Virus record (IMG/VR): IMGVR_UViG_3300044972_002389
Coordinates: 102,892 to 166,891 of that record
Strand: one strand, 5' to 3'
Origin: a virus
DNA length: 64,000 nt
Under the pieces are notes generated by a model, which saw only the letters and a program-made list of their open reading frames with translations, made no database searches and was not told the origin of the DNA. Position numbers and translations under genes: made by a program. Below are positions 26,189-60,000 of this stretch, one piece after another; position 1 is the stretch's first letter, and every line of letters starts with the position of its first letter.

Positions 26189-26560
26189 ATGACCGATGAT
26201 CTCGGAAACCTTTCTGACAATGACTTCAAGCGCCTAGTGCACCTGGTGAACGAGATCATCCACCTAAGCCACGAAGGTGCTCGAGAAGGGCAAGCTCGGG
26301 CACACGACATCTACGCACTGTCACGAGATGCACGCGACATCTTGATCCTGGACGAAACCAGTCGGGAAGCTATGCGACGCCTCACAAATACTGAACGTCC
26401 CACCATGTATGGGGTCACCATCAGCAAGTCTGTGGAAGACTATGTTCGTGCTGGCATGAAGATCAATGCCATCAAAGAGCTGCGAACTGAAACGGCTCTG
26501 GGCCTGAAAGAGGCCAAGGACGTTGTGGAGGCTTTTGCCAGCACAATTACGCCCTTTTAG
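26189..26560 (+). CDS. protein with ribosomal bL12 (L7/L12) C-terminal-domain-like segment
   Basis: C-terminal [23 protein letters not shown] versus E. coli bL12 [21 protein letters not shown], about 14 of 20 identical. The N-terminal 75 aa are unrelated and the protein ends shortly after the motif. Confidence 0.55.
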   Translation: [123 protein letters not shown]

Positions 26561-27574: not shown

Positions 27575-28786
27575 ATGAGCAAGTTCAGTTGCCCTGTGGT
27601 GCGTGTGGCCGCAGTCGAAGAACATCCGAATGCGGATCGCCTTTCTCTTGTGCGCCTTGAAGGCCTCGGTTATCTCTGCATCGCAAACAAACTAGAGGAT
27701 GGTAGCCCGCGCTACAAGCCCGGTGACTGGGTCGTATACATTCCCTCAGCCTCGGTGCTGCCTGAATGGCTGCTCAAGGACATGGGATTTTGGAACGAAG
27801 ACGCTGGTAAGGGTGTGCTGGCAGGCAGTGATGGCAACCGTGTGAAGCCACTCAAGCTGCGTGGTATTTTCAGCGAAGGTGTGCTGTATGGGCTCATTGC
27901 ATATGGTGATGACGATTGCCTTTCTGCTGATTTTGGGTCGGCGACGGATGTACATGTAGTAGGCAAAGACAGTCTTGAATATCCAGTCAAGCTAGGCGAG
28001 GATGCTGCTGCAATCTTGGGCATCACCAGGTGGGAGCCGCCCATTCCCGCTGCGATGTCTGGTGAAGTTGCCAGTGTTGCTGAGGCTGCTCTTACCTACG
28101 ATTTTCAGCGTTGGGAGAGCGTGCCTGACATCTTCGAACCTGGTGAGGTGGTGGTGGCCCAAGAAAAAATTCATGGATCTTGTACCATCATCCAGTACTT
28201 CCCAGGCATGGACCATCCCGAGATGTTCCCCGACCATGCAGGCTACCGCAGCATCACTGTCAGCAGCAAGGGACTAGGCGGTCAGGGTTTGGTGTTCAAG
28301 AACAACGAAGCCAACGCCAACAACCTCTATGTGCGGGCACTTGGCACACTGCTAGCCGACCATGACCTCGCCGGGCTCCTCCACAGGATGAGCAAGGTGG
28401 ACGGCGGTGCTCATCCGGTGGCTATCCTGGGAGAAGTTTTCGGCAAGGGCGTGCAGGACCTCGACTACGGCACCACTAAGCCCACGTTCCGGGTGTTCGA
28501 CATGCGGATCGGGCGGGAGTGGCTAAGTCCCGATGCCGTGGCCTACTGGGCAAAGGACCTGCCCTGTGTACCTACCCTCTACACTGGCCCCTTTGACCAA
28601 ACTGCCATTGAGGCTGTGAGAGACGGTGTCACAACGGTGGGTGGCACCAATGTGCGGGAAGGTGTGGTGGTGCGCAGCCTGGTTCCCACCGAGCATCCCC
28701 TGCACGGTAGGAAAATCTGCAAATTCATCTCTCCGGCGTATCTGCTCCGCCGAGTGAAGAACGGCGAGGCAACGGAGTTCAACTGA
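27575..28786 (+). CDS. ATP-dependent RNA ligase, Rnl2-like nucleotidyltransferase domain fused to N-terminal tRNA-binding OB domain
   Basis: N-terminal VAAVEEHPNADRLSLVRLEGLGYLCIANK resembles the tRNA_bind (Trbp111/EMAP-type) OB fold. VAQEKIHGSCTII matches T4 Rnl2 motif I (VAREKIHGTNFSLII). EVFGKGVQDLDYG, REGVVVR and RKICKFISP parallel motifs III to V. Confidence 0.7.
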   Translation: MSKFSCPVVRVAAVEEHPNADRLSLVRLEGLGYLCIANKLEDGSPRYKPGDWVVYIPSASVLPEWLLKDMGFWNEDAGKGVLAGSDGNRVKPLKLRGIFSEGVLYGLIAYGDDDCLSADFGSATDVHVVGKDSLEYPVKLGEDAAAILGITRWEPPIPAAMSGEVASVAEAALTYDFQRWESVPDIFEPGEVVVAQEKIHGSCTIIQYFPGMDHPEMFPDHAGYRSITVSSKGLGGQGLVFKNNEANANNLYVRALGTLLADHDLAGLLHRMSKVDGGAHPVAILGEVFGKGVQDLDYGTTKPTFRVFDMRIGREWLSPDAVAYWAKDLPCVPTLYTGPFDQTAIEAVRDGVTTVGGTNVREGVVVRSLVPTEHPLHGRKICKFISPAYLLRRVKNGEATEFN

Positions 28787-29302: not shown

Positions 29303-29581
29303 ATGACCGAAAACTATATTCTCTTGAAATGGGGCACACTCAAGGGCTATCGGGTAGCTGACAACCCTGTGGCGCAAGGTTTGATTAAACAGTACATGGA
29401 GTTGGGTGCCAGCGCCATGCACCAACAGGACACTCCCGAACAAAAACAAATCATATGCGAACTGCTGCCTGCTCTGGCGTGCCCGCGCCGTGCCTTCCCC
29501 AACCCATACGACCCCACAGGGCTGCTGCACTGGATCGCAACCCAGGAGCCGGTCATTCTCGGACGCGACCCCGCTGGCTAG
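29303..29581 (+). CDS. hypothetical ORF spanning the low-GC/high-GC junction
   Basis: GC content rises sharply inside this ORF from about 29450. It may be a junction artefact. Confidence 0.3.
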   Translation: MTENYILLKWGTLKGYRVADNPVAQGLIKQYMELGASAMHQQDTPEQKQIICELLPALACPRRAFPNPYDPTGLLHWIATQEPVILGRDPAG

Positions 29582-30745
29582 CCGGCTGGCCATTTCAGGA
29601 TGCCGCCATGTCACGCCGCTTTCTCGTTACCGGAGGTGCCGGCTTCGTCGGCAGCCATCTCGTCGCCGCCCTGCTGGACCAAGGCGCGGAGGTGGTGGTG
29701 TTCGACAACCTGCGCACCGGCCATCGCGAAGCCGTGCTCCCCGGCGCCACGCTGGTCACCGGCGCGCTGGAGGACCCCGATGCGATCGCGTCCGTGCTGG
29801 CGCAGGGGCCGTGGCATGCGGTGTTCCACTTCGCCGCGCTGTCGCTGGTGGGCGATTCCATGCGCGACCCGATCGGCTATCTCTCGGCCAATGTCGGCAA
29901 CGGCCTGCGCCTGTTGGAGGCCTGCGTGAAGCACGGCGTGCCCCGCTTCGTGTTCTCCTCCACCGCCGCCCTGTTCGGCACGCCAGACCGCATGCCGATC
30001 GACGAGGAAACCGCGATCGACCCCGGCTCACCCTACGGCGAAAGCAAATGGATGATGGAGCGCGCGCTGGGCTGGGCCGAACGCATCCACGGCATGCGCT
30101 CCGCCTGCCTGCGCTACTTCAACGCCGCCGGCGCCGACCCGCAGGGCCGCCTGGGCGAGGACCACACGCCGGAAACCCATCTGATCCCGTTGGCCATCGA
30201 CGCCATGCTCGGCCGTCGCGCCGAACTCGCCGTGTTTGGCACCGATTACGACACGCCGGACGGCACCTGCATCCGCGACTACATCCATGTCACCGACCTC
30301 GCCGCCGCCCACCTCGCGGCGCTGGAGCGGCTGGACCACGCCAGCGTCACCTACAACCTCGGCACCGCCGCCGGGCATTCGGTGCTGGAGGTGATCCAGA
30401 GCGTGGAGCGCGTCAGCCGCCGCCCGGTGCCGCACCGCTTCGCCCCACGCCGCCCTGGCGACCCCGCCCGCCTTGTTGCCAGCCCGGCGCGGATCATGCG
30501 CGAAACCGGCTGGCAGCCGCGCCTCGCAGCACTGGATGACATCGTCGCCACCGCCCTGGCCTGGCGCGAAGCCCATCCGCGCGGCTACGGCGGATGAGTT
30601 ACCGCATCCCGGCGCATCGGCCTGTGCGTGTTCTCAGAAGTGCATTTTTCACCTACTTATGTCCTCATCCGCCCAGCCGCCGCAGCGAGGACCGCCACGC
30701 CATGAGCCAGCCTGCCGCGACCACGGTCGCCAAGAACCTGGGCGC
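29450..30745 (+). other. high-GC (about 70%) island of foreign origin carrying galE
   Basis: Abrupt compositional shift relative to the roughly 45% GC flanks. It contains intact galE plus about 150 bp of donor 3' flank with a truncated downstream start (MSQPAATTVAKNLGA). Confidence 0.6.
29608..30597 (+). CDS. galE: UDP-glucose 4-epimerase
   Basis: LVTGGAGFVGSH Rossmann motif, YGESK catalytic Y-x-x-x-K, and full-length SDR-extended GalE architecture. High-GC codon usage. ATG at 29608; the ORF-track start at 29455 is upstream. Confidence 0.85.
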   Translation: MSRRFLVTGGAGFVGSHLVAALLDQGAEVVVFDNLRTGHREAVLPGATLVTGALEDPDAIASVLAQGPWHAVFHFAALSLVGDSMRDPIGYLSANVGNGLRLLEACVKHGVPRFVFSSTAALFGTPDRMPIDEETAIDPGSPYGESKWMMERALGWAERIHGMRSACLRYFNAAGADPQGRLGEDHTPETHLIPLAIDAMLGRRAELAVFGTDYDTPDGTCIRDYIHVTDLAAAHLAALERLDHASVTYNLGTAAGHSVLEVIQSVERVSRRPVPHRFAPRRPGDPARLVASPARIMRETGWQPRLAALDDIVATALAWREAHPRGYGG

Positions 30746-35511: not shown

Positions 35512-36729
35512 ATGCACTACACGTTTCCCGAGATCACGCACCTGGATCAAGTGCTGGAAGCTGTCCAGGGTGTGGAAGGCTTCATTGTAGCCCAGCGGCC
35601 CTGGGGCACTGTGGTCAACTACATTCAGATGGGCCCGGACATGTTCCCCGAGGTCCATACTGCTGGAGGCAGCGCCAGCATGCGCGAGCGGCAGACTCGA
35701 CTCAAGGCTATCCGCCGGGAGTGTAGGGGGCTGCTGTTCAGCCTTGATGGAAAGTTGGTGAGCCGCGCATTTCAGAAGTTTTGGAACGTGGGCGAACGGC
35801 GCGAGACTTTGATTGAAAACATCGATCTCACTCAGCCACACATCATCCTTGAGAAGTTGGATGGAAGTATGATTCGTGCTCTACCTCTAGGTAAGGGCTA
35901 CTGTCTTGCAACCAAGATGGGGCCCACTGCTGTAGCAGCACAGGTTGAGCCGTTCGTGGCAACTCGAGACAACTATGACCGATTTATCCGAGACACACTG
36001 GAGCAGGGATACACTGCCTGTTTCGAGTGGTGTACTCGTCAACAAAAGATTGTGTGTGATTATCCAGTTGATCGACTGGTGCTGACTGCTGTGCGTCACA
36101 TCAACTCGGGTGAGTATCTCACCTACTCTCAGATGCAGGAACTGGCGGCCGAGTATGAGCTGGATCTAGTCAAGGCCTATCCTGGTACTGTGGCTAGCAT
36201 GGAGCAGCTCGTTCGGGAGACGCATGAGCTGGAAGGCGAGGAGGGGTGGATCATCCGGTGGGATGATGGACATATGGCCAAGTTGAAATCGGCCTGGTAT
36301 GTGCGTATCCACCGTGCCAAGGATGCTCTCACGCAGGAGAAGAACCTCATCGACCTCATGCTGGCGGAAAAGCTGGACGACGTCAAGAGCTTTCTGCCTG
36401 TGGAGGACCTGGCTCGCATCGACGCCTACGAGAACGCCTTCTGGACGGGTGTGGGGCAAACTGCCTACATATGGAAGGACCAGTATGTCAAGCTCCGGCG
36501 GCAGTTTGGTGACGATAGAAAGCGGTTTGCACTGGAGGCAGCACCGGGTCTTGAGCCCAACCTGCGTAGTGCTGTGTTCAAGGTCTGGGCCCGTGAGGGC
36601 CACGTGGACTGGCGTGAGCTGGTGTGCGATGTGATCCGCAAATGCACTGGCACGCAGACCCGGGTGGACGAGGCACGCTCACTGTTCCGTGCGCCGCGGT
36701 GGAGCCAGCAAAGTGTGGGAGACGAATGA
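35512..36729 (+). CDS. rnlA: T4 Rnl1-family RNA ligase
   Basis: Collinear matches to T4 Rnl1: [25 protein letters not shown] vs [40 protein letters not shown] vs ILTKEDGSLV (motif I KxDG); [19 protein letters not shown] vs [43 protein letters not shown] vs [24 protein letters not shown]. Confidence 0.8.
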   Translation: [405 protein letters not shown]

Positions 36730-36920
36730 TGGCCTACAAAGGTGACACGGTGAAGTTTCGAGTGAGCAGTCCCAACGGCACTTGGCGCACAGTCTCCACG
36801 CTGGAAGAGGCTGAGCAAGAGATCAAAACTCTGGTGGACACCTATGGTGTGGCCTGGGCCGCAGTGGATAGGATTGAGACCACAAGGATCCTTGTTCGGC
36901 AAGTCAAGGCTGATGAGTGA
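36726..36920 (+). CDS. hypothetical protein (about 64 aa)
   Basis: ATGATG overlapping the ligase stop. Internal Met of ORF 36624..36920. Confidence 0.4.
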   Translation: MMAYKGDTVKFRVSSPNGTWRTVSTLEEAEQEIKTLVDTYGVAWAAVDRIETTRILVRQVKADE

Positions 36921-37140
36921 CTCTTACCTTGTAACTTTGGTAGCGCCTATGTGCGATGATTTTGATCAAGTGTGTGATTGGTGCATGCAACAATGGCCGT
37001 GTAAGGAGCGGCGCTGGCATATACACTGGGCTGGATTAACAACTAGAGGCAAGGGGTGGCAAATCACTTGCAGTTTCTGGCACCAAGATGATCTCACCAT
37101 GTTCCTGCTCACATGGGCGCACCTGGTTGAATCTAGATAA
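36913..37140 (+). CDS. LTW-motif small protein family, array C member 1
   Basis: VTLVAPMCDDFDQVCDWCMQQWPC...HQDDLTMFLLTWAHLVESR. ATGA overlap. Confidence 0.55.
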   Translation: MSDSYLVTLVAPMCDDFDQVCDWCMQQWPCKERRWHIHWAGLTTRGKGWQITCSFWHQDDLTMFLLTWAHLVESR

Positions 37141-37153
37141 ACAGGCGATAGTG

Positions 37154-37393
37154 ATGGCTATACTGCCCTACACAGCCACATTGGTAGCACCCAAACTCCG
37201 GGAGCTTGACCAAGTTCAGGAATGGTGCCTACAAATGTGGCCTTGTACTCATCGAGCCACATGGTATCAAGATAATATGACAATGCAAGTATTTGCAAGG
37301 TTTGAATTCAAATGCACCTGGAGTTTTCAGTTTCGAGAAGATCTCACCATGTTCCTGCTGACCTGGAGTCATTTGGTGGACAGCCATGAGTGA
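37154..37393 (+). CDS. LTW-motif small protein family, array C member 2
   Basis: TLVAPKLRELDQVQEWCLQMWPC...FREDLTMFLLTWSHLVDSHE. Confidence 0.55.
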   Translation: MAILPYTATLVAPKLRELDQVQEWCLQMWPCTHRATWYQDNMTMQVFARFEFKCTWSFQFREDLTMFLLTWSHLVDSHE

Positions 37394-37640
37394 TGCATAT
37401 GTTGTGACAGTGATGGCTTACTCACTTGAAGAATTTATCCCAGTTTACAACTGGTGCTGCCGCATGTGGGGCGATACAAGCTTGTATCAGACTTGGTGTA
37501 TGGGTTGGGCTAATTCAGATCTTTTGCGTGGAGTATATGTTTGCGATTGGGCTTTTCAACACAAGGATGATCTCATCATGTTTTTACTGACTTGGGGTCA
37601 TTTGGTTGACTCTAGCCAAGAGGCAGAAAGTTGTGAATGA
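37386..37640 (+). CDS. LTW-motif small protein family, array C member 3
   Basis: HKDDLIMFLLTWGHLVDSSQ. Confidence 0.55.
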   Translation: MSDAYVVTVMAYSLEEFIPVYNWCCRMWGDTSLYQTWCMGWANSDLLRGVYVCDWAFQHKDDLIMFLLTWGHLVDSSQEAESCE

Positions 37641-37909
37641 CAAGTTCAAGATAACATTGAGTGCCCACACAAAGGGAGAACTCGAAGCTGTGAATCTATG
37701 GTGCCAACAGTTGTGGCCAGGTGAGTGCGGGACAGTATGGGACAGCGGATGGCCACTACCTACAACTTTTTTTTAGAGCAGGTGGCATCACTGCGTGGCG
37801 TTGCAGTTGGTGGTTGACACGCAGGGAAGATCATGCTATGTTCCTGTTGACATGGGCACATTTGGTAGAGCCGCCCCAGAATTACACAAGGTATCCTCAA
37901 AGTGAATAA
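37640..37909 (+). pseudogene. LTW-family array C member 4, split by a frame shift at a T8 homopolymer
   Basis: Frame 1 gives NDKFKITLSAHTKGELEAVNLWCQQLWPGECGTVWDSGWPLPTTFF then TAG immediately after T8 (37767-37774). The +1 frame continues RAGGITAWRCSWWLTRREDHAMFLLTWAHLVEP. Skipping one T restores a full-length paralogue. Confidence 0.45.
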
Positions 37910-40483: not shown

Positions 40484-40759
40484 ATGAGCCAAGACTTGGA
40501 CGACGATTGGGATTGGGAAGAATTTTTCCGTCAATTTCCCTGTGGTGCGGCTGTGATTTTTGGTAACCATGTGGTGCATGCTGAGGGGTATCCTGAACCA
40601 GTCTCGGACATTGACGAAACTGAATTGCGCAAAGAGTTGGCAGAAGATCACGAGCTGGAACTGACCCTTCTCCGAGATTACTCAGTCATACGATTGGAAG
40701 GAGATAACTGGCGCCAGTTGATGCAGCAGTATGCAGGTGCAGATGGCACGCAGAAATAA
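40484..40759 (+). CDS. hypothetical acidic protein (91 aa)
   Basis: ORF only. Confidence 0.45.
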   Translation: MSQDLDDDWDWEEFFRQFPCGAAVIFGNHVVHAEGYPEPVSDIDETELRKELAEDHELELTLLRDYSVIRLEGDNWRQLMQQYAGADGTQK

Positions 40760-40982
40760 GACGCCACAACGGATCAAACCCCGCCGAGGATGGCACCGCG
40801 TGGTGTTGCCCAATGTACCCAATCCTTGGCGTGAGTTACTGACGGGCATGCCATCAACTGTGTCAAAGATTGACGACTGGCTGGCAGAAAACACCTCTGG
40901 CAAATGTGAGCAGTTTCGCTACAACACATGGGACTTCAAACGCCAAGAAGATGCCCTGTTGTTTACCTTGACGTGGGGATAG
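40743..40982 (+). CDS. LTW-motif small protein family, array D member 1
   Basis: WDFKRQEDALLFTLTWG. Confidence 0.5.
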   Translation: MARRNKTPQRIKPRRGWHRVVLPNVPNPWRELLTGMPSTVSKIDDWLAENTSGKCEQFRYNTWDFKRQEDALLFTLTWG

Positions 40983-40983
40983 C

Positions 40984-41319
40984 ATGGAAATAAAAATCAC
41001 CAAACAAACTGTCCTTGCCCCTGTGCGTAAGTTGAGCGCAACTTGGACAATGGAAAAACCACAAACATTGAAACACACTGTGAGCGATGAGATCGAGCAA
41101 CTTATCCAGGAAGAGATCAACAGTGAAATTTTAGCCGAAATATATCGAGTCCAAGGATGGTATCTTGTACCCCTCACTGCTCACAGCGTCTGGACAAAAG
41201 GCGCAGTGACGCCATGGCTCTTGGAACATTACCCAGATGGTGGTTACTATCTCTTCACTGGTGGTTGCATGTTCCGGGACAAAGAGATGGCTGTGGAGTT
41301 TGAGCTCACATGGACATAA
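40984..41319 (+). CDS. LTW-motif small protein family, array D member 2
   Basis: FRDKEMAVEFELTWT. Confidence 0.5.
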   Translation: MEIKITKQTVLAPVRKLSATWTMEKPQTLKHTVSDEIEQLIQEEINSEILAEIYRVQGWYLVPLTAHSVWTKGAVTPWLLEHYPDGGYYLFTGGCMFRDKEMAVEFELTWT

Positions 41320-41522
41320 TACCCAAGTTCAGTTTCCTGCATCGTGTGGAATATCGGGATCTGCCCGAAGACCCGAGAGTTATGAACTATGGAGAATCTC
41401 GCACACAAATGATCATATGGTGCTGGAAAAATCTTCCTTTGAGCGATTGGTCGCATGACCCCTTGGGTATTGATTTCAAGCATCAAGAAGGTCTCATGCA
41501 GTTTATGTTAACGTGGACATGA
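41310..41522 (+). CDS. LTW-motif small protein family, array D member 3
   Basis: FKHQEGLMQFMLTWT. Confidence 0.5.
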   Translation: MDIIPKFSFLHRVEYRDLPEDPRVMNYGESRTQMIIWCWKNLPLSDWSHDPLGIDFKHQEGLMQFMLTWT

Positions 41523-41740
41523 TTGTTACCAAGTGCTTGCCCGGCGGTGGATGGTATGCCGAAGTCATGCTGGACGATAGTGAATGGCCACCAATTGATG
41601 AAAATGACCAATGGTTAGACAGACCCATTCGACGTTGGGTAAGAGAACACACTGAGGGAGCACATTTTTTCAGTTTTAGGGGAACAATACTGTTCAGTAA
41701 CGAAAGTGATCTCACAGCGTTTGTGGTCTCTTGGTCATAA
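41513..41740 (+). CDS. LTW-motif small protein family, array D member 4
   Basis: SNESDLTAFVVSWS. Confidence 0.5.
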   Translation: MDMIVTKCLPGGGWYAEVMLDDSEWPPIDENDQWLDRPIRRWVREHTEGAHFFSFRGTILFSNESDLTAFVVSWS

Positions 41741-41988
41741 CACGTAGAGTGGCCCGCTTTTTGGAAAAGGAGAAGGATCCTCTCTACCCTTATCCGGTTG
41801 TGTTTGACAACATGGAAGTCTCTGAGGCTGAAATACTTCGAGCCTGGCTAAGACAGCATGGTGGCCGAGAAAACGAGGATTGGGCTTGGACTCATGGATG
41901 GTGGGGAGATACCGTTCACTGTTTTAGGTTTCGAGATCCTTGCACAGCAGAGTTTTTCCGCTTGACTTGGCACCCAACAAGCGTATAG
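41731..41988 (+). CDS. LTW-motif small protein family, array D member 5
   Basis: FRDPCTAEFFRLTWHP. Confidence 0.5.
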   Translation: MVITRRVARFLEKEKDPLYPYPVVFDNMEVSEAEILRAWLRQHGGRENEDWAWTHGWWGDTVHCFRFRDPCTAEFFRLTWHPTSV

Positions 41989-47235: not shown

Positions 47236-48468
47236 ATGAAAAAGTTATCCTTACATAGTATAGTAGTTTTGATTGGTCCCACTAAGAGTGGCAAAAGCAC
47301 ATGGGCCCAAAACCAGTTTGACGCTGATGAAATCATAAGCCTTTCTTCAATCAAGAAAGAGTTGACAGGCAACAATTCAACAGTGGATATTTTGCCAAAT
47401 ATTTGGCACGAACTCTATCGTAGAGTTGATATTCGTATCGCCAACGGGCAACGTGCAGTAGTTGATTCCACTAATCTAAAAGACAAGGACAGATTTACTT
47501 TTCTTGATATTGCCGAAAAGTATGGTGTGGAAGTCTATTACAAACCTTTTGACCTTGAATGGGGCACAATACAGCAAAACTCTGGTTCTTGTTATGACTT
47601 TGACTCTTTGAGAAAAAGCTATAGTATATGGAAAAATGCTCGCACACAGGTGTTACAGGGCGATAATAAACGAGCTGTTGTGCTGTGTGGTGACGAAACC
47701 ACTGTTGGATTTCCAAATGAATTGCAGAGTGCAAGGATTTTAGCAGTAGGCGATGTTCATGGCAATTTTCCAGCTATGCAGCAGGCAGTGCAAATGGCAC
47801 AACAGTTACACGCAAAGCTAGTGTGGCTGGGAGATATTGTGGACTATGGCGCCAATAATCTCAAATGTTTGAAACTTGCATATGACACTGTTCGAGACGG
47901 GCAAGCACTTATGATTTGGGGAAATCACGAAAGAAAAATTGATCGCTGGATTAGGAGCGACTTGGGTGAAACCTTTAATGGCAAACTTAGCGAGTCAAAT
48001 CTATCTACTATAAGAGAAATCAACAGTTTGAATGACTTGCGGAAAAAGAAGTTTCTTGCAGCTTGGACAGCACTAAGAAACTGGAGTTTTAACCACCTAA
48101 CAGTGGGAAAATTTTTGTTTACTCATGGTGCAGCAACACCTGCCATGTGGGCCAACAAGGATCGCAGATTGCAAGGTGTTTGTGCAAATATGGCCTATTT
48201 TGGTGAGGTAGACACTGTTTCACCGACCAAGAATGATGGATATCCAAACCGTATCTGGAATTGGGTTCAAAACATACCTGCTGATCATACTGTTGTTGTA
48301 GGGCATGATTGGCTTGATCGTGTCAGTTACAACGTTGTGGAAAAAGCAAATTCTTGTGGCGGCCGGGCATTTGTTACAGATTGTGGTAGCAGCAAAGGCG
48401 GTCGTTTGGGTGCACTTTTTGTTGATCAACATAGCAAAGAAGTTTTGCCTTACTATTTTGACACTTAA
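47236..48468 (+). CDS. pnk: polynucleotide kinase-phosphatase: T4 Pnk-like P-loop kinase domain fused to calcineurin-like metallophosphoesterase
   Basis: [20 protein letters not shown] vs T4 Pnk [58 protein letters not shown] vs T4 [36 protein letters not shown]. The C-terminal half has GDVHGN, GDIVDYG and GNHE, which are MPE/PPP phosphoesterase motifs rather than the T4 HAD phosphatase. Confidence 0.75.
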   Translation: [410 protein letters not shown]

Positions 48469-50558: not shown

Positions 50559-51491
50559 ATGACAACTTGGGAACAGGTGGCTGACGACAGCAGATACACA
50601 AAGGTACTTGACAAGGGCTTTGTGGGCTTGATTGACCACATGGGCAGTGATCAAGCCATTGTGCAAGCTGCTCGAGTCAGCTATGGCGAGGGCACAAAAT
50701 CTGTAAATGAGGATCGCGGTTTGATCCGCTATCTCATGAGGCACATGCACTCGACTCCATTTGAGATGGTGGAATTCAAGTTTCATCTCAAAATGCCAAT
50801 CTTTGTAATGCGTCAACATGTGCGACACCGAATGGCCTCAATCAACGAATACAGTGGTCGTTATAGTGTTATGACGGATGAGTTTTATATTCCTGAACCA
50901 ACTCGAATTCAAGCGCAAAGCAGTGACAACAAACAGGGCAGTGCCGGACAACTTGCAAAGCAAGAACTGGAAATAGCACTCAACACAATCCAGCGAGTAA
51001 GTGCTGAAAACTATCTAGACTATCTCAGCCTCATAAATGACCCCAATGGACGAGACTATAAATTTGGTGAGCGTCAGGGCCTGGCACGCGAGCTGGCACG
51101 TATGGTGCTGCCAGTAAACAACTACACTGAATTGTATTGGAAAATTGACCTCAAAAACCTGTTTCACTATCTCAATCTCAGAATTGATTCTCACGCGCAA
51201 TATGAGATCCAACAGTTGGCCTTACCTATTGCAGAGCATGTGAAACGCATTTGTCCAATTGCATGGGAAGCGTTTGAAGACTATTGGCAGCAAGCCACAA
51301 CTGTGAGTAGGCTTGAAAAAAACCTATTGCAGGAGCTTATCAACTTCAGTAACGTACAGAGCGTGAGTTTTGCAGACAGTTATGAGACTATGATCCAAAC
51401 CGCAGGTAGCAAATCACAACTGCAAACACAGTTTGGAATGAGCAAACGTGAGTTGGCAGAATTTGAGAAGCAGTGGAAGCTGGCCCTTTAG
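50559..51491 (+). CDS. thyX: flavin-dependent thymidylate synthase
   Basis: RHRMASINEYSGRY is the ThyX R-H-R-x7-S-x-R signature. LIDHMGSDQAIVQAARVSYG. GGAG RBS before ATG 50559; the ORF-track start at 50547 is upstream. Confidence 0.85.
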   Translation: MTTWEQVADDSRYTKVLDKGFVGLIDHMGSDQAIVQAARVSYGEGTKSVNEDRGLIRYLMRHMHSTPFEMVEFKFHLKMPIFVMRQHVRHRMASINEYSGRYSVMTDEFYIPEPTRIQAQSSDNKQGSAGQLAKQELEIALNTIQRVSAENYLDYLSLINDPNGRDYKFGERQGLARELARMVLPVNNYTELYWKIDLKNLFHYLNLRIDSHAQYEIQQLALPIAEHVKRICPIAWEAFEDYWQQATTVSRLEKNLLQELINFSNVQSVSFADSYETMIQTAGSKSQLQTQFGMSKRELAEFEKQWKLAL

Positions 51492-53299
51492 GCCAGCTTC
51501 GCTTCTAGGGCTGCAAGTTTTTGACTTAGTTCTTGCACTGCTGCCCATAATATAGGTACTAACTTGCTGTTGTCTACTGACTGATAGACTGGATGGCCGT
51601 TTTCATCAACTTCATCTTTCTGGCCCTTAACAGCTTGTGGTACCACAGCTTGAAGTTCATGAGCTAAGAAGCCACTAGACCTTTCAGTCCGCATTGAGTC
51701 AACCCAGTTATAGGTTTTGGCATGAACTTTGCCTACTAAATCCAGGGCTTGGCTTAACGGAGCAATGTTTGTTTTGCGTCGATAATCAGATAGGCTGTTG
51801 TAATAGGTGCCGGCATCATCGAAAAGTATACTTCCTGACTCATATGCGTTTAGGATTGATGTTGTATTGATTTTGAATGATATACCTTTTTGGACCGCAG
51901 GTGTTATTGGATAACTGCCCCAAAGATTTATCATAGTATTTGGCTGAGGGTTGAAGGGCTGACTTACGGTTGACCTGATGTTGATACCATCGGTGTTGGC
52001 TTGATTCATATTGATAGTAAGAAATGAATCATTGAACGCTGGGGAGGCAGTGGCATTTGCTGCAATTGTTACGTCACCCAACCTCAAACCACGGTTTACA
52101 AACCGGGCAGTCTCAACACCAGATATGAAACAGCTTAGCTGATTTGACGCCACTTGGCCTAGTCCTGTTTGTAAATCACCTTTGAAAACATATTTCATAG
52201 GGCCATCAGATTCAGAAGGGGAGCCAGCACAGAATTTGTGAGAAAACACTGTCCACAATTTTGTGTTCAAGCTACCAAGGTCAAATACGGCATCCACAGT
52301 AGGAATATTTGTAGCATCTTTCCGCATGAAAATTGTGGGACTGACGGGAGGCGTCCCAAGGGTATCAGCATTTAAGGCGCTTGTGGCTTTGCCATCAAAA
52401 TTTGTGGCGTAGATAGTATTGTATTTGAAGCTGGTACTACCAAGGTTGTATAAGTTGTCATTTATTGGTAGATTTGTTTGGTCGCGACGCATGTAGCTTC
52501 CTGATGGTATGCCACCAAGGAAAACGCTGTTTTGGGCCAACAAAGTGCTTGTGCTTTCGCCATAAAATTTGGCATTGGGCAATGTGGGATTTAAGGTTAT
52601 TCCTGGATAGACACTTGTGAACCCTTGTAATGGATTGGTTGGTGTTGCTGCTGGAGCGAAAGTTGCATCATTACTTACTACTGCAACCAGTTGTCCACCT
52701 ACAGTCAATCTCAATACCTTATGGATTGCATTTAAGGTGTCTGTTACCAACAGTGCATCAACATTTGTATAGACTGGTATGCTGGGACTATTTGCATCGT
52801 TGCCGTCAGCGGCACCCAGCGGACCAACTAAGTTCCACTGTGATGAACCATACACAAAAAGTTGTTTTTTAGTTTGATCATACAACAGCTCTCCGTCAAC
52901 AGGATTTACAGGGCCAGGAGGAGAGGGAGGGCCTGGAGGAGTAGGACCAGGTGGTGTGGGTGGAGGTATGTTGGGTGTAGTTTGTACCGGGGCTGCACTT
53001 TTCCAGGCAGTGCCGTCATATACTTTCAATTGAGCGTTGGCAACGTCATACCATAATTGACCAACTCTTGGATTACTGGGCCCAGATAATGGTGCCCCAG
53101 CAAAGTTTTCCAACATCCATACTAAGTTTTCAACAACAGGCTCACCGTAATTGGGATAATTACGCCCAGGCAACCGCAACGAAGTTGCGGTTGTGTTGAT
53201 TGTCTTGTCAGGAATGGATGCAATCGGAGTTCCGCTGTAACTGTTGATCACATATGTCATATTGCTTGCCTCAGAGTATTTCTGATATTTATGCAGCAA
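51488..53299 (-). CDS. tail fibre protein with Pro-rich linker and C-terminal intramolecular chaperone domain
   Basis: PPPTPPGPTPPGPPSPPGP linker. C-terminus SDYRRKTNIAPLSQALDLVGKV...LWAAVQELSQKLAALEAKLA parallels the chaperone domain of the 2647..9783 fibre. Confidence 0.7.
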   Translation of the reverse strand: MLHKYQKYSEASNMTYVINSYSGTPIASIPDKTINTTATSLRLPGRNYPNYGEPVVENLVWMLENFAGAPLSGPSNPRVGQLWYDVANAQLKVYDGTAWKSAAPVQTTPNIPPPTPPGPTPPGPPSPPGPVNPVDGELLYDQTKKQLFVYGSSQWNLVGPLGAADGNDANSPSIPVYTNVDALLVTDTLNAIHKVLRLTVGGQLVAVVSNDATFAPAATPTNPLQGFTSVYPGITLNPTLPNAKFYGESTSTLLAQNSVFLGGIPSGSYMRRDQTNLPINDNLYNLGSTSFKYNTIYATNFDGKATSALNADTLGTPPVSPTIFMRKDATNIPTVDAVFDLGSLNTKLWTVFSHKFCAGSPSESDGPMKYVFKGDLQTGLGQVASNQLSCFISGVETARFVNRGLRLGDVTIAANATASPAFNDSFLTINMNQANTDGINIRSTVSQPFNPQPNTMINLWGSYPITPAVQKGISFKINTTSILNAYESGSILFDDAGTYYNSLSDYRRKTNIAPLSQALDLVGKVHAKTYNWVDSMRTERSSGFLAHELQAVVPQAVKGQKDEVDENGHPVYQSVDNSKLVPILWAAVQELSQKLAALEAKLA

Positions 53300-54047: not shown

Positions 54048-57000
54048 TTATGCTGGTATCGACCCAGGTTGTGACAACAAAAATTGAGCTTGGTAAGTGC
54101 TGCTATATTGTAGCCCTAGTCCACCATAAGGCCACTGATACCCACCTGGGATAACTTGCCGCACACTACCATCTCGCACTACGCTGGTAGTTGGGTGAGA
54201 CATAGCTGTTGTTTTCCAGTCTTGTTTGAAGATTATAAGTCCAATATTTTTATTGCCTGCAGGAGGTGGTTCAAAAATTGGAGCCAATGTCTGAGAGGGG
54301 AATTGCAGATAAAATCCAGGGGCTGCATTTGAGGGGTTGCTTACTAGCATCCAATCGTTTTGGAGCTTGCCATCCACAATAACATACGCATTTACCATTC
54401 CTGCTTGCCATTCTCCTGCGTTTGTAATAGTTACAGGATACAAATCACTGTTGCCTGTGCTACTCCAATACTGTGCCACAAATTTATCACTAATGCCGCC
54501 AGGTGTTCCCAGTGTGCCACGATTGATTTTTCTCAAAACAGCTTGGTTAGGAAATGCAGTTGAGGCCGCAGGAGCTTTGTCAAAATATTCAATTCTTTCA
54601 CCCTCAATCCAAATAACCCCAGGTCGTTTGTCATCAGGTTCAAGAAGAGTGTCGCCATTTGCTACAAAAATTTCCTGATCATTCCAGTTCAACACCTGAG
54701 TAAGAACGGTCCTGTCCTGATTCCCAAGGCGTAGGTATTGTGTGTCGTTATACACATTTGTCACAGCACGGAATGCAACACCATCTTTGCTGGGCAACGC
54801 TGTGGGATAATAGGCTTGAATCTCATCAGCTGCTGTCAAAGTGTAATGATTTCCTAACTTTAGGTACCAACTGTTTCCGGTTTTGACTATGGTATAGTCT
54901 AAAATCCAGCTTAAGCTACTGCCGTTGAGCCATACTTGCACACTTTGGAACTCCAACGGAGTATTGGTGAATAGGTATTGGTTGCTGGAATCACCTGTCC
55001 AGACATCGTTATAAAAGGCACTTGCGCTGTCTTCACCCCAAGTTCTTACAACAATAGTATCGCCGTCAACCACCGCCCAACTTGCCAAAAGTAGGTTTGT
55101 TCCTTGGATTTGATAATCATAGTTTTGGGCGACTGGATCAGCCACTTCAATGTAAATGAAACTTTTATCTGATGGCGCTGTAGTGAATATTATTTGATTT
55201 CCAGCCAATGTATATTCTGTGTTAGGCAATACTGAGGCATTTAACCAAACTTGAATAAATGACCCAGGATCTGGGAAAATAGCCAAATTATATGCTGTTG
55301 TGTTGTTGTCACCAATTGCACTCAAAAGGTAGGGTGGCTTCAATCGCTTGCCGTTACTGTAGACCAGTGCATTGTTACTTTGTGCAGGATTGAATCCGCT
55401 CAAGGGATTATTTGGTGTATTCAAATTCAGCGGATACGTGAGCAATGGCAAGGTTACTACCAAACTCTGTAATTTTTGTAGACTTTGATATTGACTGCTG
55501 TATACCAAAATTACAATAGTGTCGCCAGGCAAAGGTGTAAATCCCAGTCCAATTTGACGATTGTCGGCAGGGTTTACACCAAAACTCACTGTAGGCACTC
55601 CATTCCAAGTCATCAGAATAGTGTTAGCGCCTATGGGTTGATCCATTGTGATCACAAAACTTGTGATGTCAAAAACAACAGTTTTAGTTTCTTGAATATG
55701 GCTGGAATAGTTAGCAATGCTGAACCCTGTGCCAGTACCAGGTGCTCCACCACTTATGGTTACACCCACTTGTTGGAGGCCAACATTCTTATTCAAATAA
55801 CTACCACGAGTCAACGGCAAGATGCTGGCTACTCCCCATTGTGGAGTAATCAACCCTCCTATACCTGTTCCATTTGTATACCATTCATTTTGACTTATGC
55901 TGGGCTGAGTATAATAGCCTTGATTTACAATACTCACAGCAGTAATTTGTCCAGCTACACCACCAAAAGCAGTAGTGCTGTCAACCTTGATTACCAAAGT
56001 TTGCGTTCCGCTCCCGTATTTGAAATACAAGAGATCTCCTACCTTGTAGCCAGATCCTGGCTGATTTACATTTACAGCAGTTGCACGTATTGCAGTGACT
56101 AACACTGTTGTAGATGTGTAGCTCTGTGATGTATCACTTAACACGATAGTATCGTTCAAGTTGTAATCAATTCCTTGATTTACTATGCTCCAATTTCCGA
56201 GACCAGGGGTTGCTCCACCAAAACCAAAGCTGGTAATTACAACTGATCCCACTGGCGGGAAAACAAAAACAATGCTATTGCTGCTGGGATCATATACATA
56301 ATCAGAGGTTGGTCCTAGAGTTTTCAAAATTCCGCCTACACTGACAATAATGTCAGCAGCACTGAACACTGGTTGGCCAATATAAAATCTATCAGTAATG
56401 CTGTCGCCAAGCCAACTTTCAGACAACACATTCCCAAAGCCCACTGTGGGTTGATTGGCAACATCTATTATCAAGGTTTCTTTTCCTTGAAGCGGGAACA
56501 ACTCTTCAGGATGATTGCCTTCCACATGTGGTCGACTCAACCCCTGTCCATCATATACAGCATCAAGCGTGCCTCCTAGGGCACTTTCAAATGTGCTGCC
56601 TGCTTCTGCTACCCAAATGTTGGGTTTGGCTACAGCACTAAGTGGCGCCAGTGCAAATTCAAGACTTGTGCCGCCCCAACGTAGGACAAAGGTGGCATTT
56701 ACGCCTGAACCGCCAGAGGCTTGCACTGCTGTTCCACTGGGAGTCAGTGTGTATGCCCCTGGAAAGACCACCTCAATTTTCAAAATTGCACCTGTCAAAC
56801 TTGTGTTGACTACTTTCAGCTGAGCAGGAATAGTATAAGTGCCTCCAGATACAGAGAGTATATCATTTACACTATATCCTAATCCTTGATTAGCAACATC
56901 CACAGCAGTTATCCAGTTTTTGACTGTCCAATTGAGAGGAGTGTTTTGAAGATTACCATTTACCCAAACACGCAAGTCATTTGGAGCTTGTGGGGCCTGA

Positions 57001-60000
57001 GGCAGGGCAAACTTTGTTTGCAGCCCGTCCCCTTTGAATACCCAATATTGTGGCCTTGCTCCACCATTTATGTATTGATCAAATAACCGATCAACTTCTT
57101 GGCTAGTGTTGTCCCAGCCCAATACGCCATCCCACACTGGCTCGCCCCAACGACCATTTAGATTGAAATCCAAACCATCCAACACTGTTCCTTTGGGAGC
57201 ACATCCACTGATCAGTAAGGGATCATTTGGAGGAGGCATGCTAGGAGTGGGCTGATACAACTGTTGAATTCTGTCTGCTGCTCCGTTATCCAGTTGATAT
57301 CCAACCAATTCAAATATGCCTTGATTGAACACAAACAAACTCCAAAGCCCAATGTTGTCGTAAATTACTTTGATTATTTCTCCATTAGGCAAGTTTGTCA
57401 GAGCTTTCATTTCTTCGATAGTGTCAATAAACCTATTTGGCACAGTATTCTCGCTGTATCCAGGACTGTAATAGTCTTCTGCGGGCACACACGCCAGTCG
57501 GTCCAACACAATTTTTGTCCTTGTGCTGCGTACACTGAGGTTTGCTATATCAAATACAGTCACAGTAACAATATCTCCAACACCTGGTGTGAAGTTGAGT
57601 TCAACGAGAGTGCTGTCGTCTAAATTTATCTCATAATCATTAGTTAATAAGTTGTTCCATCGAACTTGTGTAAATTGCCAAGTTATGGGATTTGTCATGC
57701 TTACTATTTGAGAAATGCCGTCACCAATAAATGTCTTACGCTCAAGATAGCTAGATGCGTATACATACGCCTGCACAACATCGTTAGTGTTAGGCACAAA
57801 GACCAAATCAATTATTGAGTTGTCTCCAGGACGCAAATTCCAAGCTTGAGAAAGCTTGCTATTCCAGTATACCAAAACATTTTCAGGTTTGGTGCTAGTG
57901 CTTAGTTGAAGAGATTTGGTTGATCCGTTACCAGTTAAGGTCACTGTTTCAATCAATGCACCACTGCTGGCTTTGTAGTTGTCGTACCACGGCTTGTATA
58001 TGGTATCTCCGGACAAAATCGCAAGATCAACTGGGTTACTGACATTCAAGATTGAAACATTATTGTTCAGGTCAATATAGGGAGGGTTATCCAAATCGCT
58101 GCTGTTGCTTTCCCAATAGTCCGAGACCACTCTGTAATCCACAAATTGGCGTATGACAACGTGGTAGGGTTTAACCTCTTGAATATATTTTTCCAAGCTG
58201 TCTATTTTACTTGGGTCATAATAGGCTGAACTCAAGAGTTGTTGGCTGAAACCTTTCAAATTGATAAAGCTTGTTTTGAAACACCAATCTACGAAATTTT
58301 GTTCAGCCAGCACATGGCTCACTAGCTCAAAAAATACCATGTTACGTTCATTTACATCACTGTCAACTTTCAAAAGTCCCACAGCTTTGTTGTTTTCAGG
58401 CCACAATCCCTGCAAAATATAGCTCAATTCTAGGCGTGTATCATACTCCCAACCTTGATAATCAACTGCATAACTTCCTCCACTGAAGCCCATGCTGTAC
58501 TTTTCGTAGTCATAGAGATTGTCACTGAGTTGTAGATTGCCGTTTTGTACACCTACTACGGTCCATAAGGTTTCAGAATCAGGCGTGTATTCAAAAAGAT
58601 TCCAACGGCCATTGCCTGTATTCAACACTTTGACCAAAGTTCCAGAGTCAACCACAAGAGTGTCACGGTCAGCCAAAGTGGCAACAGTAGCCCCAATCAG
58701 GGTGTCGGCACTGATGCCGCTGGCATACCAATCTACCAAGTACCAAACTTGGTTAGTGTCCCATGCTTGCATACGCTCTAATGAAAACTGGTTTTGTCCT
58801 TGATAAAGCCAAATGGTCCAGCGGTTGTTGGTGGCAGCACTTACATCTACCAAAACTTTGTTACCAGGTATTAGGCTGGGAATCAAAGCATCTCTTGCCG
58901 CCAAAGTAGCTACGTAATAATCCCAATTGCAGGGCAATATGCCTTTTACTGGCCGTACAATTTGCCACTCTAGGGGATCAATTCCCAATTTCAAAATGTT
59001 CTTGTTGTTTTGAATATAGGTTGTTGGCAATAGCTGTGATGCACCTTCCAAAACCAACACTTGTGCATCTATTAGGTTGTCATCTATGCTGTCAAAATCT
59101 GCAGACCTCATCAAGATCCATGGATTGTTGAGCGAGCCAATGTCCACTACATCATAAATTCCATTTTGATTAGGTGTTTGTGTGACAATAGAGCTGGTAA
59201 GAGTAACTGGATTTTGATTTTTAACAATTATTCGGTCTCCCAAATTTACTGTTATACCATCAACAACCAATGCACTATAAGATGAGCCATTATAGGTTAA
59301 GGTAGCACCCTTGCCATTTTCCCCAGGATAGTAAACAGTGTCTAGAGCAGTTGTGGTTGCCACTCGAGCATTGGCTTTGGTATTTTTTTGGAGAGGCTGT
59401 GGCTCTACGCTCTGAAAATACTGTAACCAGCCAAGCCTGTCAGGGTCATCCAATGGCGGCACACTGCTGCTGCTAAGGAGGCTGTTGATTTTTTTAACAA
59501 AAGCTCTCCTAGCAGTAATACCATCCTTGAACCAACTTTGTGAAGGTCGTGTCAGCATGCCATACTTGCTCATTTCAGGCAGTCGCAAATTGGGAACACT
59601 GTTGCCTACGTTGTTGAATTCCACAAGACTATCACACATTTTGCTCCACAAATCTAGTGTAGGTGTGCTCAAAGGATCGTTGGGTCTCAACAATGTCCAC
59701 TCTTTGTAGATTTTATCTACATTTTCTCTACTTGTATAATTCACTTGCCAGACAGTGTTGTTTTCATCCAAGAAACTGCCAATGTTTGCTAACAATGCGC
59801 CTGTGCTGCTGATTGCGGCCCACCAGCTTTGGTTTTGTGTTTGTGGACTTTCAACAATTTGACTCAAAGATGCAACACTTATCTTGCGATCTGGCACGTT
59901 GGGCACTGTGGTTTTGTTTTTTACCCAAAAGTAATAGGCATTTGTGTATTGGCCGCTTTCATTACGCTCACTTGCCAACACGTAGGGATAATCAGCACCT

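What the first reader, a model, noticed from the sequence alone, without database searches (positions are those of the whole stretch)
37640..37909. Family member split exactly at a T8 homopolymer followed by an in-frame TAG, a candidate +1 frameshift site
Frame 1 ends ...PLPTTFF-TAG immediately after TTTTTTTT (37767-37774). The +1 frame continues RAGGITAWRCSWWLTRREDHAMFLLTWAHLVEP, the canonical family C-terminus. The geometry UUU UUU UAG resembles prfB-type +1 programmed frameshifting, with a slippery Phe codon and a 0-frame stop. Alternatives are homopolymer sequencing error, slipped-strand phase variation or an inactivating mutation.
Basis: seen in the sequence. Interest (0 to 1): 0.55.

Follow-up and report, generated by a model that had tools for sequence, protein, structure and literature searches.

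The report
One-base insertion splits a phage paralog
One strain of an uncultivated freshwater jumbo phage has gained a single extra T in a run of seven Ts, which breaks one of four tandem copies of a small orphan gene; sister strains keep the intact T7 version, so this is an ordinary frameshift mutation and not a programmed frameshift signal.

Summary
T8 lies at 37767-37774, and its last T starts an in-frame TAG (37774-37776). The +1 frame carries the family C-terminus through to TAA at 37907-37909.

The tract is polymorphic in nature. Six other independent assemblies from three sources (JGI, Logan, ENA) carry T8. All are 99.99-100% identical to the window over up to 21 kb, so they are one clone. 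Four different sister haplotypes (88-99.5% identical) carry T7 and an intact gene with exactly the predicted junction, ...TTFFRAGG... T8 is perfectly linked to a derived C at 37799.

This rules out a random sequencing error. It also removes the key requirement for programmed frameshifting, which is conservation of the shift. No SD-like stimulator lies upstream, no RNA structure lies downstream, and Rfam finds no recoding element.

Gene 4 is the most divergent member of a tandem array whose copy number varies from 1 to 5 between related phages, so its loss is plausibly tolerated.

Best explanation: a replication-slippage insertion (T7 to T8) fixed in one clone. It gives a 47-aa truncated product, with perhaps 1-10% unprogrammed rescue by RNA-polymerase slippage on T8 or by +1 slippage at UUU-UAG.

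Interest is low. The phenomenon is already known.

The parts
36913..37140 (+). Family member 1 of the tandem array (75 aa, ends ...DDLTMFLLTWAHLVESR)
   Evidence: ORF list and motif scan; aligned in A3
37154..37393 (+). Family member 2 (79 aa, MAILPYTATLVAP...MFLLTWSHLVDSHE). This subtype is the only copy present in related phages.
   Evidence: the single-copy orthologue in L012-L028 is gene-2-like
37386..37640 (+). Family member 3 (84 aa). The exact protein is indexed in 67 blocks of the public collection.
37633..37776 (+). Gene 4, N-terminal reading frame: GTG start overlapping the gene-3 stop (GTGAATGA), 47 codons, closed by TAG
   Evidence: weak SD (AAGAGG, -5.8 kcal/mol) upstream; N-terminus MNDKFKITL aligns with MSDSYLVTL and MSDAYVVTV of the paralogs
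37767..37774 (+). T8 homopolymer. It reads T7 in sister haplotypes. The extra T is the frameshifting insertion.
   Evidence: only run of 8 or more bases in the window
37774..37776 (+). TAG stop, brought into frame by the extra T
37775..37909 (+). Gene 4, C-terminal part in the +1 frame (44 codons plus TAA). It encodes the last beta-strand and helix with the conserved ED..MFLLTW.HLV motif.
   Evidence: structure model
37799..37799 (+). Derived C (CGT Arg), perfectly linked to T8. All T7 haplotypes have G (GGT Gly).
40731..41988 (+). Second tandem block of five distant members of the same family (context, not part of the break)

Best explanation
A real, heritable one-base insertion (T7 to T8) arose in the ancestor of one clonal lineage of an uncultivated jumbo phage whose contigs come mostly from freshwater metagenomes. 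The most likely cause is replication slippage on the homopolymer. The change ACT TTT TTT AGA to ACT TTT TTT TAG A shifts the frame of gene 4, which is the youngest and most divergent of four tandem paralogs of a small orphan alpha/beta protein. Standard decoding therefore gives a 47-aa fragment that lacks the family's most conserved C-terminal strand and helix. Array copy number varies from 1 to 5 between close relatives, and the clone is recovered in many samples, so losing or strongly reducing this copy is tolerated. The shift is not programmed. Some unselected leakage to full-length protein is expected, on the order of 1-10%. It could come from RNA-polymerase deletion slippage on T8 (producing U7 mRNA) or from +1 ribosomal slippage of tRNA-Phe at UUU-UAG. 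Shown here: the allele is real, it is derived, it is confined to one clone, and no stimulatory signals are present. Inferred: the replication-slippage origin, the tolerance of loss, and the leakage.
For: (1) The intact T7 allele exists. P0001 and L001 encode the uninterrupted protein at about 98% DNA identity. L003/L040, L006 and L007 also have T7. These are four different mosaic haplotypes, 88-99.5% identical to the window.
(2) T8 is reproducible. It occurs in L002/L039 (Logan SRR27422518), L004 (Logan SRR10955144), L005 (JGI 3300044637), L011 (JGI 3300042863), L036 (ENA ERZ27272062, a 326-kb contig) and L037 (JGI 3300042446). All are 99.99-100% identical to the window over 3-21 kb.
(3) T8 is perfectly linked to C at 37799. 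All T7 haplotypes have G, including the most diverged one, L007. T7 with G is therefore ancestral and T8 with C is derived.
(4) No other homopolymer of 8 or more bases occurs in the window, so the assembly shows no general homopolymer-error signature.
(5) No programmed-frameshift signals: no SD-like element within 20 nt upstream, downstream folding no better than shuffles (z = +0.7 and +1.9), and no Rfam element.
(6) The gene looks dispensable. Related phages whose 127-aa neighbour is 90-91% identical carry a single, gene-2-like copy. L007 carries five copies. The gene-4 subtype has no representative outside its own cluster among 1.84 billion proteins.
(7) The break lies in the low-confidence variable loop (P0001 residues 62-71), ahead of the conserved strand E77-83 and helix H86-99.
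(8) Leakage is plausible. E. coli RNAP restores about 10% of expression across a T8 by deletion slippage (PMC6260861).
Against: No read-level data were available, so within-population heterogeneity of the tract (reversible switching) cannot be excluded. The downstream frame in the T8 clone is still open and carries only one extra nonsynonymous change. This fits a very young pseudogene, but it fits a still-expressed gene equally well. The clone shows only about 1 SNP per 3-13 kb of microdiversity, so there is no power to detect decay. The UUU-UAG geometry does allow perfect +1 re-pairing. Sequencing platforms of the public assemblies were not verified.
Confidence: 0.8

Rival explanations
1. Programmed +1 ribosomal frameshifting of the prfB or shifty-stop type. 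tRNA-Phe on UUU slips +1 onto UUU while UAG waits in the A site, and the full-length protein is the intended product.
For: The geometry UUU UUU UAG permits perfect re-pairing in the +1 frame with a 0-frame stop. The +1 frame is open and encodes the conserved family C-terminus. The T8 allele is stable across six other assemblies.
Against: The four closest haplotypes are in frame with T7 and give the identical junction, so the shift is not conserved. No SD-like stimulator lies 3-15 nt upstream: +2 to +3.8 kcal/mol, against -10.3 for prfB. There is no downstream structure and no Rfam hit. None of the other eight family members in the window needs a shift, nor do the 16 sequenced representatives of the 76 found.
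Confidence: 0.04
2. Homopolymer sequencing or assembly error: the true sequence is T7 and the gene is intact.
Against: T8 recurs in six other independent assemblies from JGI, Logan and ENA. The JGI pipeline, which also produced T8 contigs, gives T7 on sister haplotypes. T8 is perfectly linked to a substitution 25 nt downstream of the tract, at 37799. No other broken homopolymer or long run occurs in the 64 kb.
Confidence: 0.03
3. A phase-variable contingency switch. The tract toggles between T7 and T8 at high frequency by slipped-strand mispairing, switching this accessory gene on and off within phage populations.
For: Tract length is polymorphic between strains, including contigs with consecutive JGI identifiers (Ga0453xxx) that are presumably from one project. 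It is the longest homopolymer in the window and sits inside a coding region.
Against: There is no homoplasy. All 7 clone-type sequences have T8 with C, and all 4 other haplotypes have T7 with G, which fits a single event. A 7-8-nt tract is short for high-rate switching. The other family members have no such tract.
Confidence: 0.08
4. A functionally retained leaky allele ('compensatory' recoding). The insertion is real, but RNA-polymerase slippage on T8 or +1 slippage at UUU-UAG supplies enough full-length protein for the gene to stay under selection at a reduced dose.
For: E. coli RNAP gives about 10% rescue on T8 by deletion slippage, and T7 RNAP gives more than 60% (PMC6260861). Corrective frameshifting at indels in homopolymers is documented (PMC5009743; PMC8254509). 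The downstream frame remains open in the clone.
Against: There is no evidence of selection. The allele is too young for decay to show, and the one linked change is nonsynonymous. The typical length at which selection against slippage runs becomes evident in bacteria is 9 nt (PMC1088944). The host and its polymerase are unknown.
Confidence: 0.12

Closest known systems
Frameshift mutation by replication slippage in a coding mononucleotide run (ordinary indel polymorphism or young pseudogene)
   Same: A single-base expansion of a homopolymer, found in one sub-lineage. Intact alleles occur in sister lineages, and the affected gene is a redundant tandem paralog.
   Different: Nothing essential. The only unusual point is that the extra T itself creates the stop codon (TTT TAG), which gives a geometry that mimics a shifty-stop site.
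prfB (RF2) programmed +1 frameshift site, CUU UGA C with an upstream SD
   Same: The P-site codon can re-pair in the +1 frame and is immediately followed by a 0-frame stop. The functional C-terminus lies in the +1 frame.
   Different: There is no SD-like stimulator, no conservation of the shifted arrangement among orthologues, no autoregulatory logic, and the stop is UAG, not UGA.
Non-programmed or corrective transcriptional slippage at A/T runs (E. coli RNAP on T7/T8 reporters; Buchnera/Blochmannia poly(A) rescue; Oenothera atpB oligoA +1A)
   Same: A one-base insertion in a homopolymer that polymerase or ribosome slippage on the same run could partly bypass.
   Different: No expression data exist here. 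The tract is shorter than in most documented cases (9-11 nt), and the affected gene is non-essential and redundant.
Phase-variable contingency genes with homopolymer tracts (as in Neisseria and Haemophilus)
   Same: A coding homopolymer whose length differs between strains and switches the reading frame on or off.
   Different: The tract is short, and its state follows haplotype without homoplasy. No within-sample heterogeneity has been shown.

Membership tests
prfB-type programmed +1 ribosomal frameshift | A slippery P-site codon that re-pairs in the +1 frame, followed by a 0-frame stop codon | tested here: met
   UUU (37771-37773) followed by UAG (37774-37776); the +1 codon is also UUU
prfB-type programmed +1 ribosomal frameshift | An internal Shine-Dalgarno-like stimulator a few nucleotides upstream of the shift codon | tested here: not met
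   Anti-SD duplex energies are +2.0 to +3.8 kcal/mol for all 9-mers starting at 37752-37767. The nearest weak site (-5.7) lies about 25 nt upstream. The prfB reference is -10.3.
prfB-type programmed +1 ribosomal frameshift | The shifted gene arrangement is conserved among orthologues | tested here: not met
   Four sister haplotypes have T7 and an uninterrupted ORF. No other family member is split.
Programmed recoding with a 3' RNA stimulator (phage PSA-type +1, or -1 sites) | A stable or conserved downstream stem-loop or pseudoknot | tested here: not met
   Downstream 100 nt: MFE -30.6 against a shuffle mean of -32.8 (z = +0.71). The 121-nt span across the site gives z = +1.92. No Rfam match.
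Programmed transcriptional slippage site (Thermus dnaX A9, IS elements A9/T9, mxiE T9) | An A/T run long enough for efficient slippage, typically 9 nt or more | tested here: inconclusive
   The run is T8. E. coli RNAP gives about 10% rescue on T8 (PMC6260861). Selection against such runs usually becomes evident at 9 nt, although 8 can be productive in some organisms (PMC1088944). The host polymerase is unknown.
Programmed transcriptional slippage site | The run and the two-ORF organisation are preserved across homologues | tested here: not met
   The T8 two-ORF state is confined to one clone, and sister haplotypes have a single ORF with T7.
Phase-variable contingency locus | Tract length polymorphism that switches the coding frame | tested here: met
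   T7 (in frame) and T8 (out of frame) both occur in natural populations.
Phase-variable contingency locus | Recurrent, reversible switching: homoplasy across haplotypes, or heterogeneity within a population | tested here: inconclusive
   No homoplasy among 11 sequences: 7 have T8 with C and 4 have T7 with G. Read-level heterogeneity could not be tested with these tools.
Frameshift pseudogene or null allele | The ORF is disrupted relative to intact orthologues, and the disrupted state is derived | tested here: met
   The T7 allele is intact in diverse haplotypes, including the most distant one, L007. T8 occurs only in one clone.
Frameshift pseudogene or null allele | Further degenerative changes accumulate after the break | tested here: inconclusive
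   There is one extra derived nonsynonymous change (37799 G to C). Both differences from L006 across 1149 bp fall within the 277-bp gene 4 (chance about 0.06). The clone is too young for a meaningful test.

The most novel reading that the evidence does not exclude
The T tract sets the ratio between two products, and both alleles make both. In the T7 allele, U_UUU_UUU is a perfect -1 slippery heptamer, and the -1 frame hits UAG immediately. That would give the same 47-aa N-terminal fragment that the T8 allele makes by standard decoding, a geometry like dnaX gamma. In the T8 allele, U7 transcripts or +1 slippage at UUU-UAG would give the full-length protein. Replication slippage between T7 and T8 would then be a heritable way to reset the ratio of full-length to truncated protein in a fast-evolving phage accessory gene.
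Probability: 0.06. Interest if true: 0.45.

Novelty: already known. Interest (0 to 1): 0.15.

Why it matters
For annotation, the locus in this clone should be marked as a frameshifted gene (a T7-to-T8 insertion). It should not be annotated as a programmed recoding event, and it should not be silently "corrected" as a sequencing error. It also shows that a UUU-UAG or homopolymer geometry alone is not evidence for programmed frameshifting, and that comparison with sister haplotypes settles the question quickly. The modest biological interest lies in the context. This is an orphan family of small alpha/beta proteins: nine copies in this window, but only 76 representatives among 1.84 billion proteins. 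It is undergoing visible birth-and-death evolution in a jumbo phage, with 1, 4 or 5 tandem copies in close relatives and one copy freshly broken. That pattern is typical of accessory genes under shifting selection, such as those involved in host takeover or counter-defence.

Tried and rejected
- Megablast of the 1.7-kb region against 50,697 deposited phages found no match. A tblastn of the repaired protein gave only E = 6 noise.
- Pfam and PHROGs on the four tandem proteins gave nothing meaningful: EGL-1 at 16 bits, below its cutoff, and PHROG hits at E >= 0.015.
- An IMG/VR scan with the repaired protein found no relative.
- Looking up the exact 56-aa N-terminal fragment and the 101-aa gene-2 ORF found neither on record, because gene callers use other starts.
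- A degenerate DNA pattern allowing any tract length found only one contig (L007) in the JGI metagenome collection and none in the GTDB genomes.
- Re-initiation after the TAG was considered and rejected. The SD-like AGGUGG at 37780-37785 is followed by GTG 37795 and TTG 37801 in the wrong frame. The only in-frame TTG (37814) has no usable spacing and would give just 31 aa.
- A literature search for the sample accessions, to identify the environment, returned nothing.
- A first literature query was rejected for syntax, as was one term search.

Full report
**1. Observation.**
The sequence at 37750-37780 reads TGG CCA CTA CCT ACA ACT TTT TTT TAG AGC. T8 occupies 37767-37774, and its last T is the first base of TAG at 37774-37776. 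That TAG closes a frame-1 ORF. The +1 frame continues as RAGGITAWRCSWWLTRREDHAMFLLTWAHLVEPPQNYTRYPQSE to TAA at 37907-37909.

Three genes immediately upstream end in the same ...(D/E)DL.MFLLTW.HLV... motif: 36913-37140, 37154-37393 and 37386-37640.

The likely start of the split gene is GTG 37633. It overlaps the gene-3 stop as GTGAATGA, parallel to the ATGAGTGA overlap between genes 2 and 3. The resulting N-terminus, MNDKFKITL, aligns with MSDSYLVTL and MSDAYVVTV.

T8 is the only homopolymer of 8 or more bases in the 64 kb, against about 4 A/T runs of that length expected.

**2. Comparison with related sequences.**
A search of 5.8 billion proteins with the frame-joined protein returned one hit, P0001. 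It is 96% identical and covers the whole query. Its contig (L001, JGI sample 3300042334) is about 98% identical to the window at the DNA level. It has T7 instead of T8, giving an uninterrupted ORF with exactly the predicted junction...TTFFRAGG....

I recovered more copies through exact matches to neighbouring window proteins. These show the tract is polymorphic in nature.

T8 is present in six other assemblies:
- L002/L039 (Logan SRR27422518)
- L004 (Logan SRR10955144)
- L005 (JGI 3300044637)
- L011 (JGI 3300042863)
- L036 (ENA ERZ27272062, a 326,193-bp contig)
- L037 (JGI 3300042446)

T7 is present in L001, L003/L040 (JGI 3300042450), L006 (JGI 3300042319) and L007 (Ga0105104_10037019).

All T8 contigs are 99.99-100% identical to the window over 3-21 kb. 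There are zero mismatches except one SNP at 45114 in L037. They therefore represent one clone.

The T7 contigs are four different mosaic haplotypes, 88-99.5% identical to the window. T8 is perfectly linked to C at 37799 (CGT, Arg). Every T7 contig has G (GGT, Gly), including the most distant one, L007.

T7 with G is therefore the ancestral and widespread state. T8 with C is a derived state that arose once.

**3. What this excludes.**
- **Random sequencing or assembly error.** The same T8 is produced by assemblies from three independent sources. The JGI pipeline, which also produced T8 contigs, gives T7 on sister haplotypes. Tract state also co-segregates with a substitution 25 nt downstream of the tract. 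The window shows no other homopolymer anomaly.
- **Programmed frameshifting.** This requires the shifted arrangement to be maintained, yet the nearest relatives are simply in frame.
- **Stimulatory signals.** No SD-like sequence lies within 20 nt upstream. Anti-SD duplex energies are +2.0 to +3.8 kcal/mol, the nearest weak site (-5.7) is about 25 nt upstream, and the prfB reference is -10.3. The downstream 100 nt and the 121 nt spanning the site fold no better than dinucleotide shuffles (z = +0.71 and +1.92). Rfam finds no recoding element.
- **Re-initiation after the TAG.** The nearest start codons after the downstream AGGUGG are in the wrong frame.

**4. Context.**
The window belongs to a large tailed phage. 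It encodes tail-fibre proteins with S74 intramolecular chaperone domains, a NUMOD3 homing endonuclease, Rnl1- and Rnl2-like RNA ligases, a PNK-like kinase/phosphatase and an epimerase.

A 326-kb contig matches the window 100% over 21 kb, so this is a jumbo phage. The nearest deposited relatives are Synechococcus phages B3 and B23, at 38% amino-acid identity on Rnl1. The metagenome sources are mostly freshwater; this is my reading of the record names and was not verified.

The small-protein family has no Pfam or PHROG assignment. An exhaustive profile search found 76 representatives among 1.84 billion proteins, all about 60-140 aa except one 1176-aa outlier at the E-value threshold. The window holds nine members: four in the tandem array, and five distant ones at 40731-41988.

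An AlphaFold model (pLDDT 72) gives a beta-beta-alpha-beta-beta-alpha order. The T tract falls in the low-confidence variable loop (P0001 residues 62-71). This lies ahead of the conserved strand E77-83 and helix H86-99. The T8 product therefore lacks the family's best-conserved module.

Fold searches return only generic two-layer alpha/beta sandwiches, and PDB sequence search finds nothing. The function of the family is unknown.

**5. Dispensability.**
Phages whose 127-aa downstream neighbour is 90-91% identical (L012-L028) carry only one family copy at this position. It is gene-2-like and intact. The window lineage has four copies. L007 has five, with an extra 79-aa copy inserted at about 37370. 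The gene-4 subtype is found only in this lineage.

The array is therefore evolving by gene birth and death, and gene 4 is its youngest and most divergent member. The T8 clone is recovered from at least six other samples, so the break is not strongly deleterious.

**6. Mechanism.**
*Shown.* There is a one-base insertion in a T7 run. It is derived, clonal, and truncates the ORF at codon 47.

*Inferred.* The insertion arose by replication slippage.

*Inferred from the literature.* Some frame restoration is likely without any programming.
- E. coli RNA polymerase restores about 10% of expression across a T8 by deletion slippage, and T7 RNAP restores more than 60% (PMC6260861).
- Selection against such runs usually becomes evident at 9 nt, although 8 can be productive in some bacteria (PMC1088944).
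- 'Corrective' or 'compensatory' frameshifting at indels is a recognised class (PMC5009743). One example is a +1A insertion in an oligoA tract of chloroplast atpB (PMC8254509).
- UUU-UAG also allows perfect +1 re-pairing of tRNA-Phe at a slow-to-decode stop. This point rests on established knowledge of shifty stops and was not tested here.

Nothing indicates that such leakage is selected. The clone is too young to show decay or constraint: its microdiversity is about 1 SNP per 3-13 kb. The only other derived change in the gene is nonsynonymous. Both differences from the nearest T7 haplotype, L006, fall within the 277-bp gene out of 1149 otherwise identical bases. The chance of that is about 0.06, which is suggestive at most.

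**7. Comparison with known systems.**
The site shares with prfB only the slippery-codon-plus-stop geometry. It fails the SD-stimulator and conservation criteria.

It resembles documented cases of non-programmed or corrective slippage at homopolymer indels, but no expression data exist here.

It meets the first criterion of a contingency locus, a frame-switching length polymorphism. It shows no homoplasy among 11 sequences, and read-level heterogeneity could not be tested.

The simplest filing is an ordinary frameshift allele, or young pseudogene, of a redundant paralog.

**8. Verdict.**
- **Observation:** confirmed.
- **Programmed +1 frameshift:** not supported (about 0.04).
- **Sequencing error:** contradicted (about 0.03).
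- **Best explanation:** a real lineage-specific T7-to-T8 insertion, non-programmed and possibly leaky (about 0.8).
- **Novelty:** already known as a phenomenon.
- **Interest:** low (0.15).

The residual interest lies in the orphan family's rapid copy-number turnover. There is also the untested possibility that the tract tunes the ratio of full-length to truncated product.

Noticed in passing
window 40731-41988: A second tandem block of five small genes (70-111 aa) ending in a related F.LTW motif. They align with the 36.9-37.9 kb array and are distant members of the same orphan family, making nine copies in the window.
   Followed up: partly
L007 1522-1761 (inserted at window ~37370); L012-L028 upstream of the 127-aa gene: Array copy number varies between close relatives. 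L007 has five copies (an extra 79-aa paralog), the window has four, and phages whose 127-aa neighbour is 90-91% identical have only one.
   Followed up: yes
window 27575-28786, 35512-36729, 47236-48468: An RNA-repair-like gene set: an Rnl2-like ligase, a T4 Rnl1-like ligase, and an AAA_33 plus metallophosphatase protein (PNK-like). This suggests a tRNA-repair counter-defence like that of T4.
   Followed up: no
window 26189-26560: A 123-aa ORF matches the ribosomal protein L7/L12 C-terminal domain above Pfam's cutoff (31.6 against 25.9 bits), but only over part of the domain. It may be a phage-encoded bL12-like protein.
   Followed up: partly
window 29406-30539 versus 29455-30597: A 377-aa alternative-frame ORF with no Pfam hit overlaps almost the whole NAD-dependent epimerase gene on the same strand. 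It is unusually long for a spurious overlapping ORF.
   Followed up: partly
L012 4446-6384 (likewise L013-L016, L018-L020 and L022): Related phage contigs carry a solute-binding protein gene (SBP_bac_3) and a sodium:dicarboxylate symporter gene (SDF) about 1 kb downstream of the 127-aa gene. The window has no such genes at that position. They may be auxiliary transport genes.
   Followed up: no
L036 (ENA ERZ27272062 k141_697863, 326,193 bp): A 326-kb contig is 100% identical to window 25512-46729. The element is therefore a jumbo phage, and this contig may be the window's source.
   Followed up: partly
window 2647-9783 and 54048-63980 (minus strand): Two giant ORFs of 2378 and 3310 aa. The first carries an S74 chaperone-of-endosialidase domain, as does the 603-aa ORF at 51488-53299. 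The 3310-aa protein has no Pfam hit at all.
   Followed up: no
window 37096-37107: A tight cluster of four SNPs in the C-terminal motif of gene 1 separates the T8 clone from L001, L006 and L007. It may be a short gene-conversion tract between paralogs.
   Followed up: no
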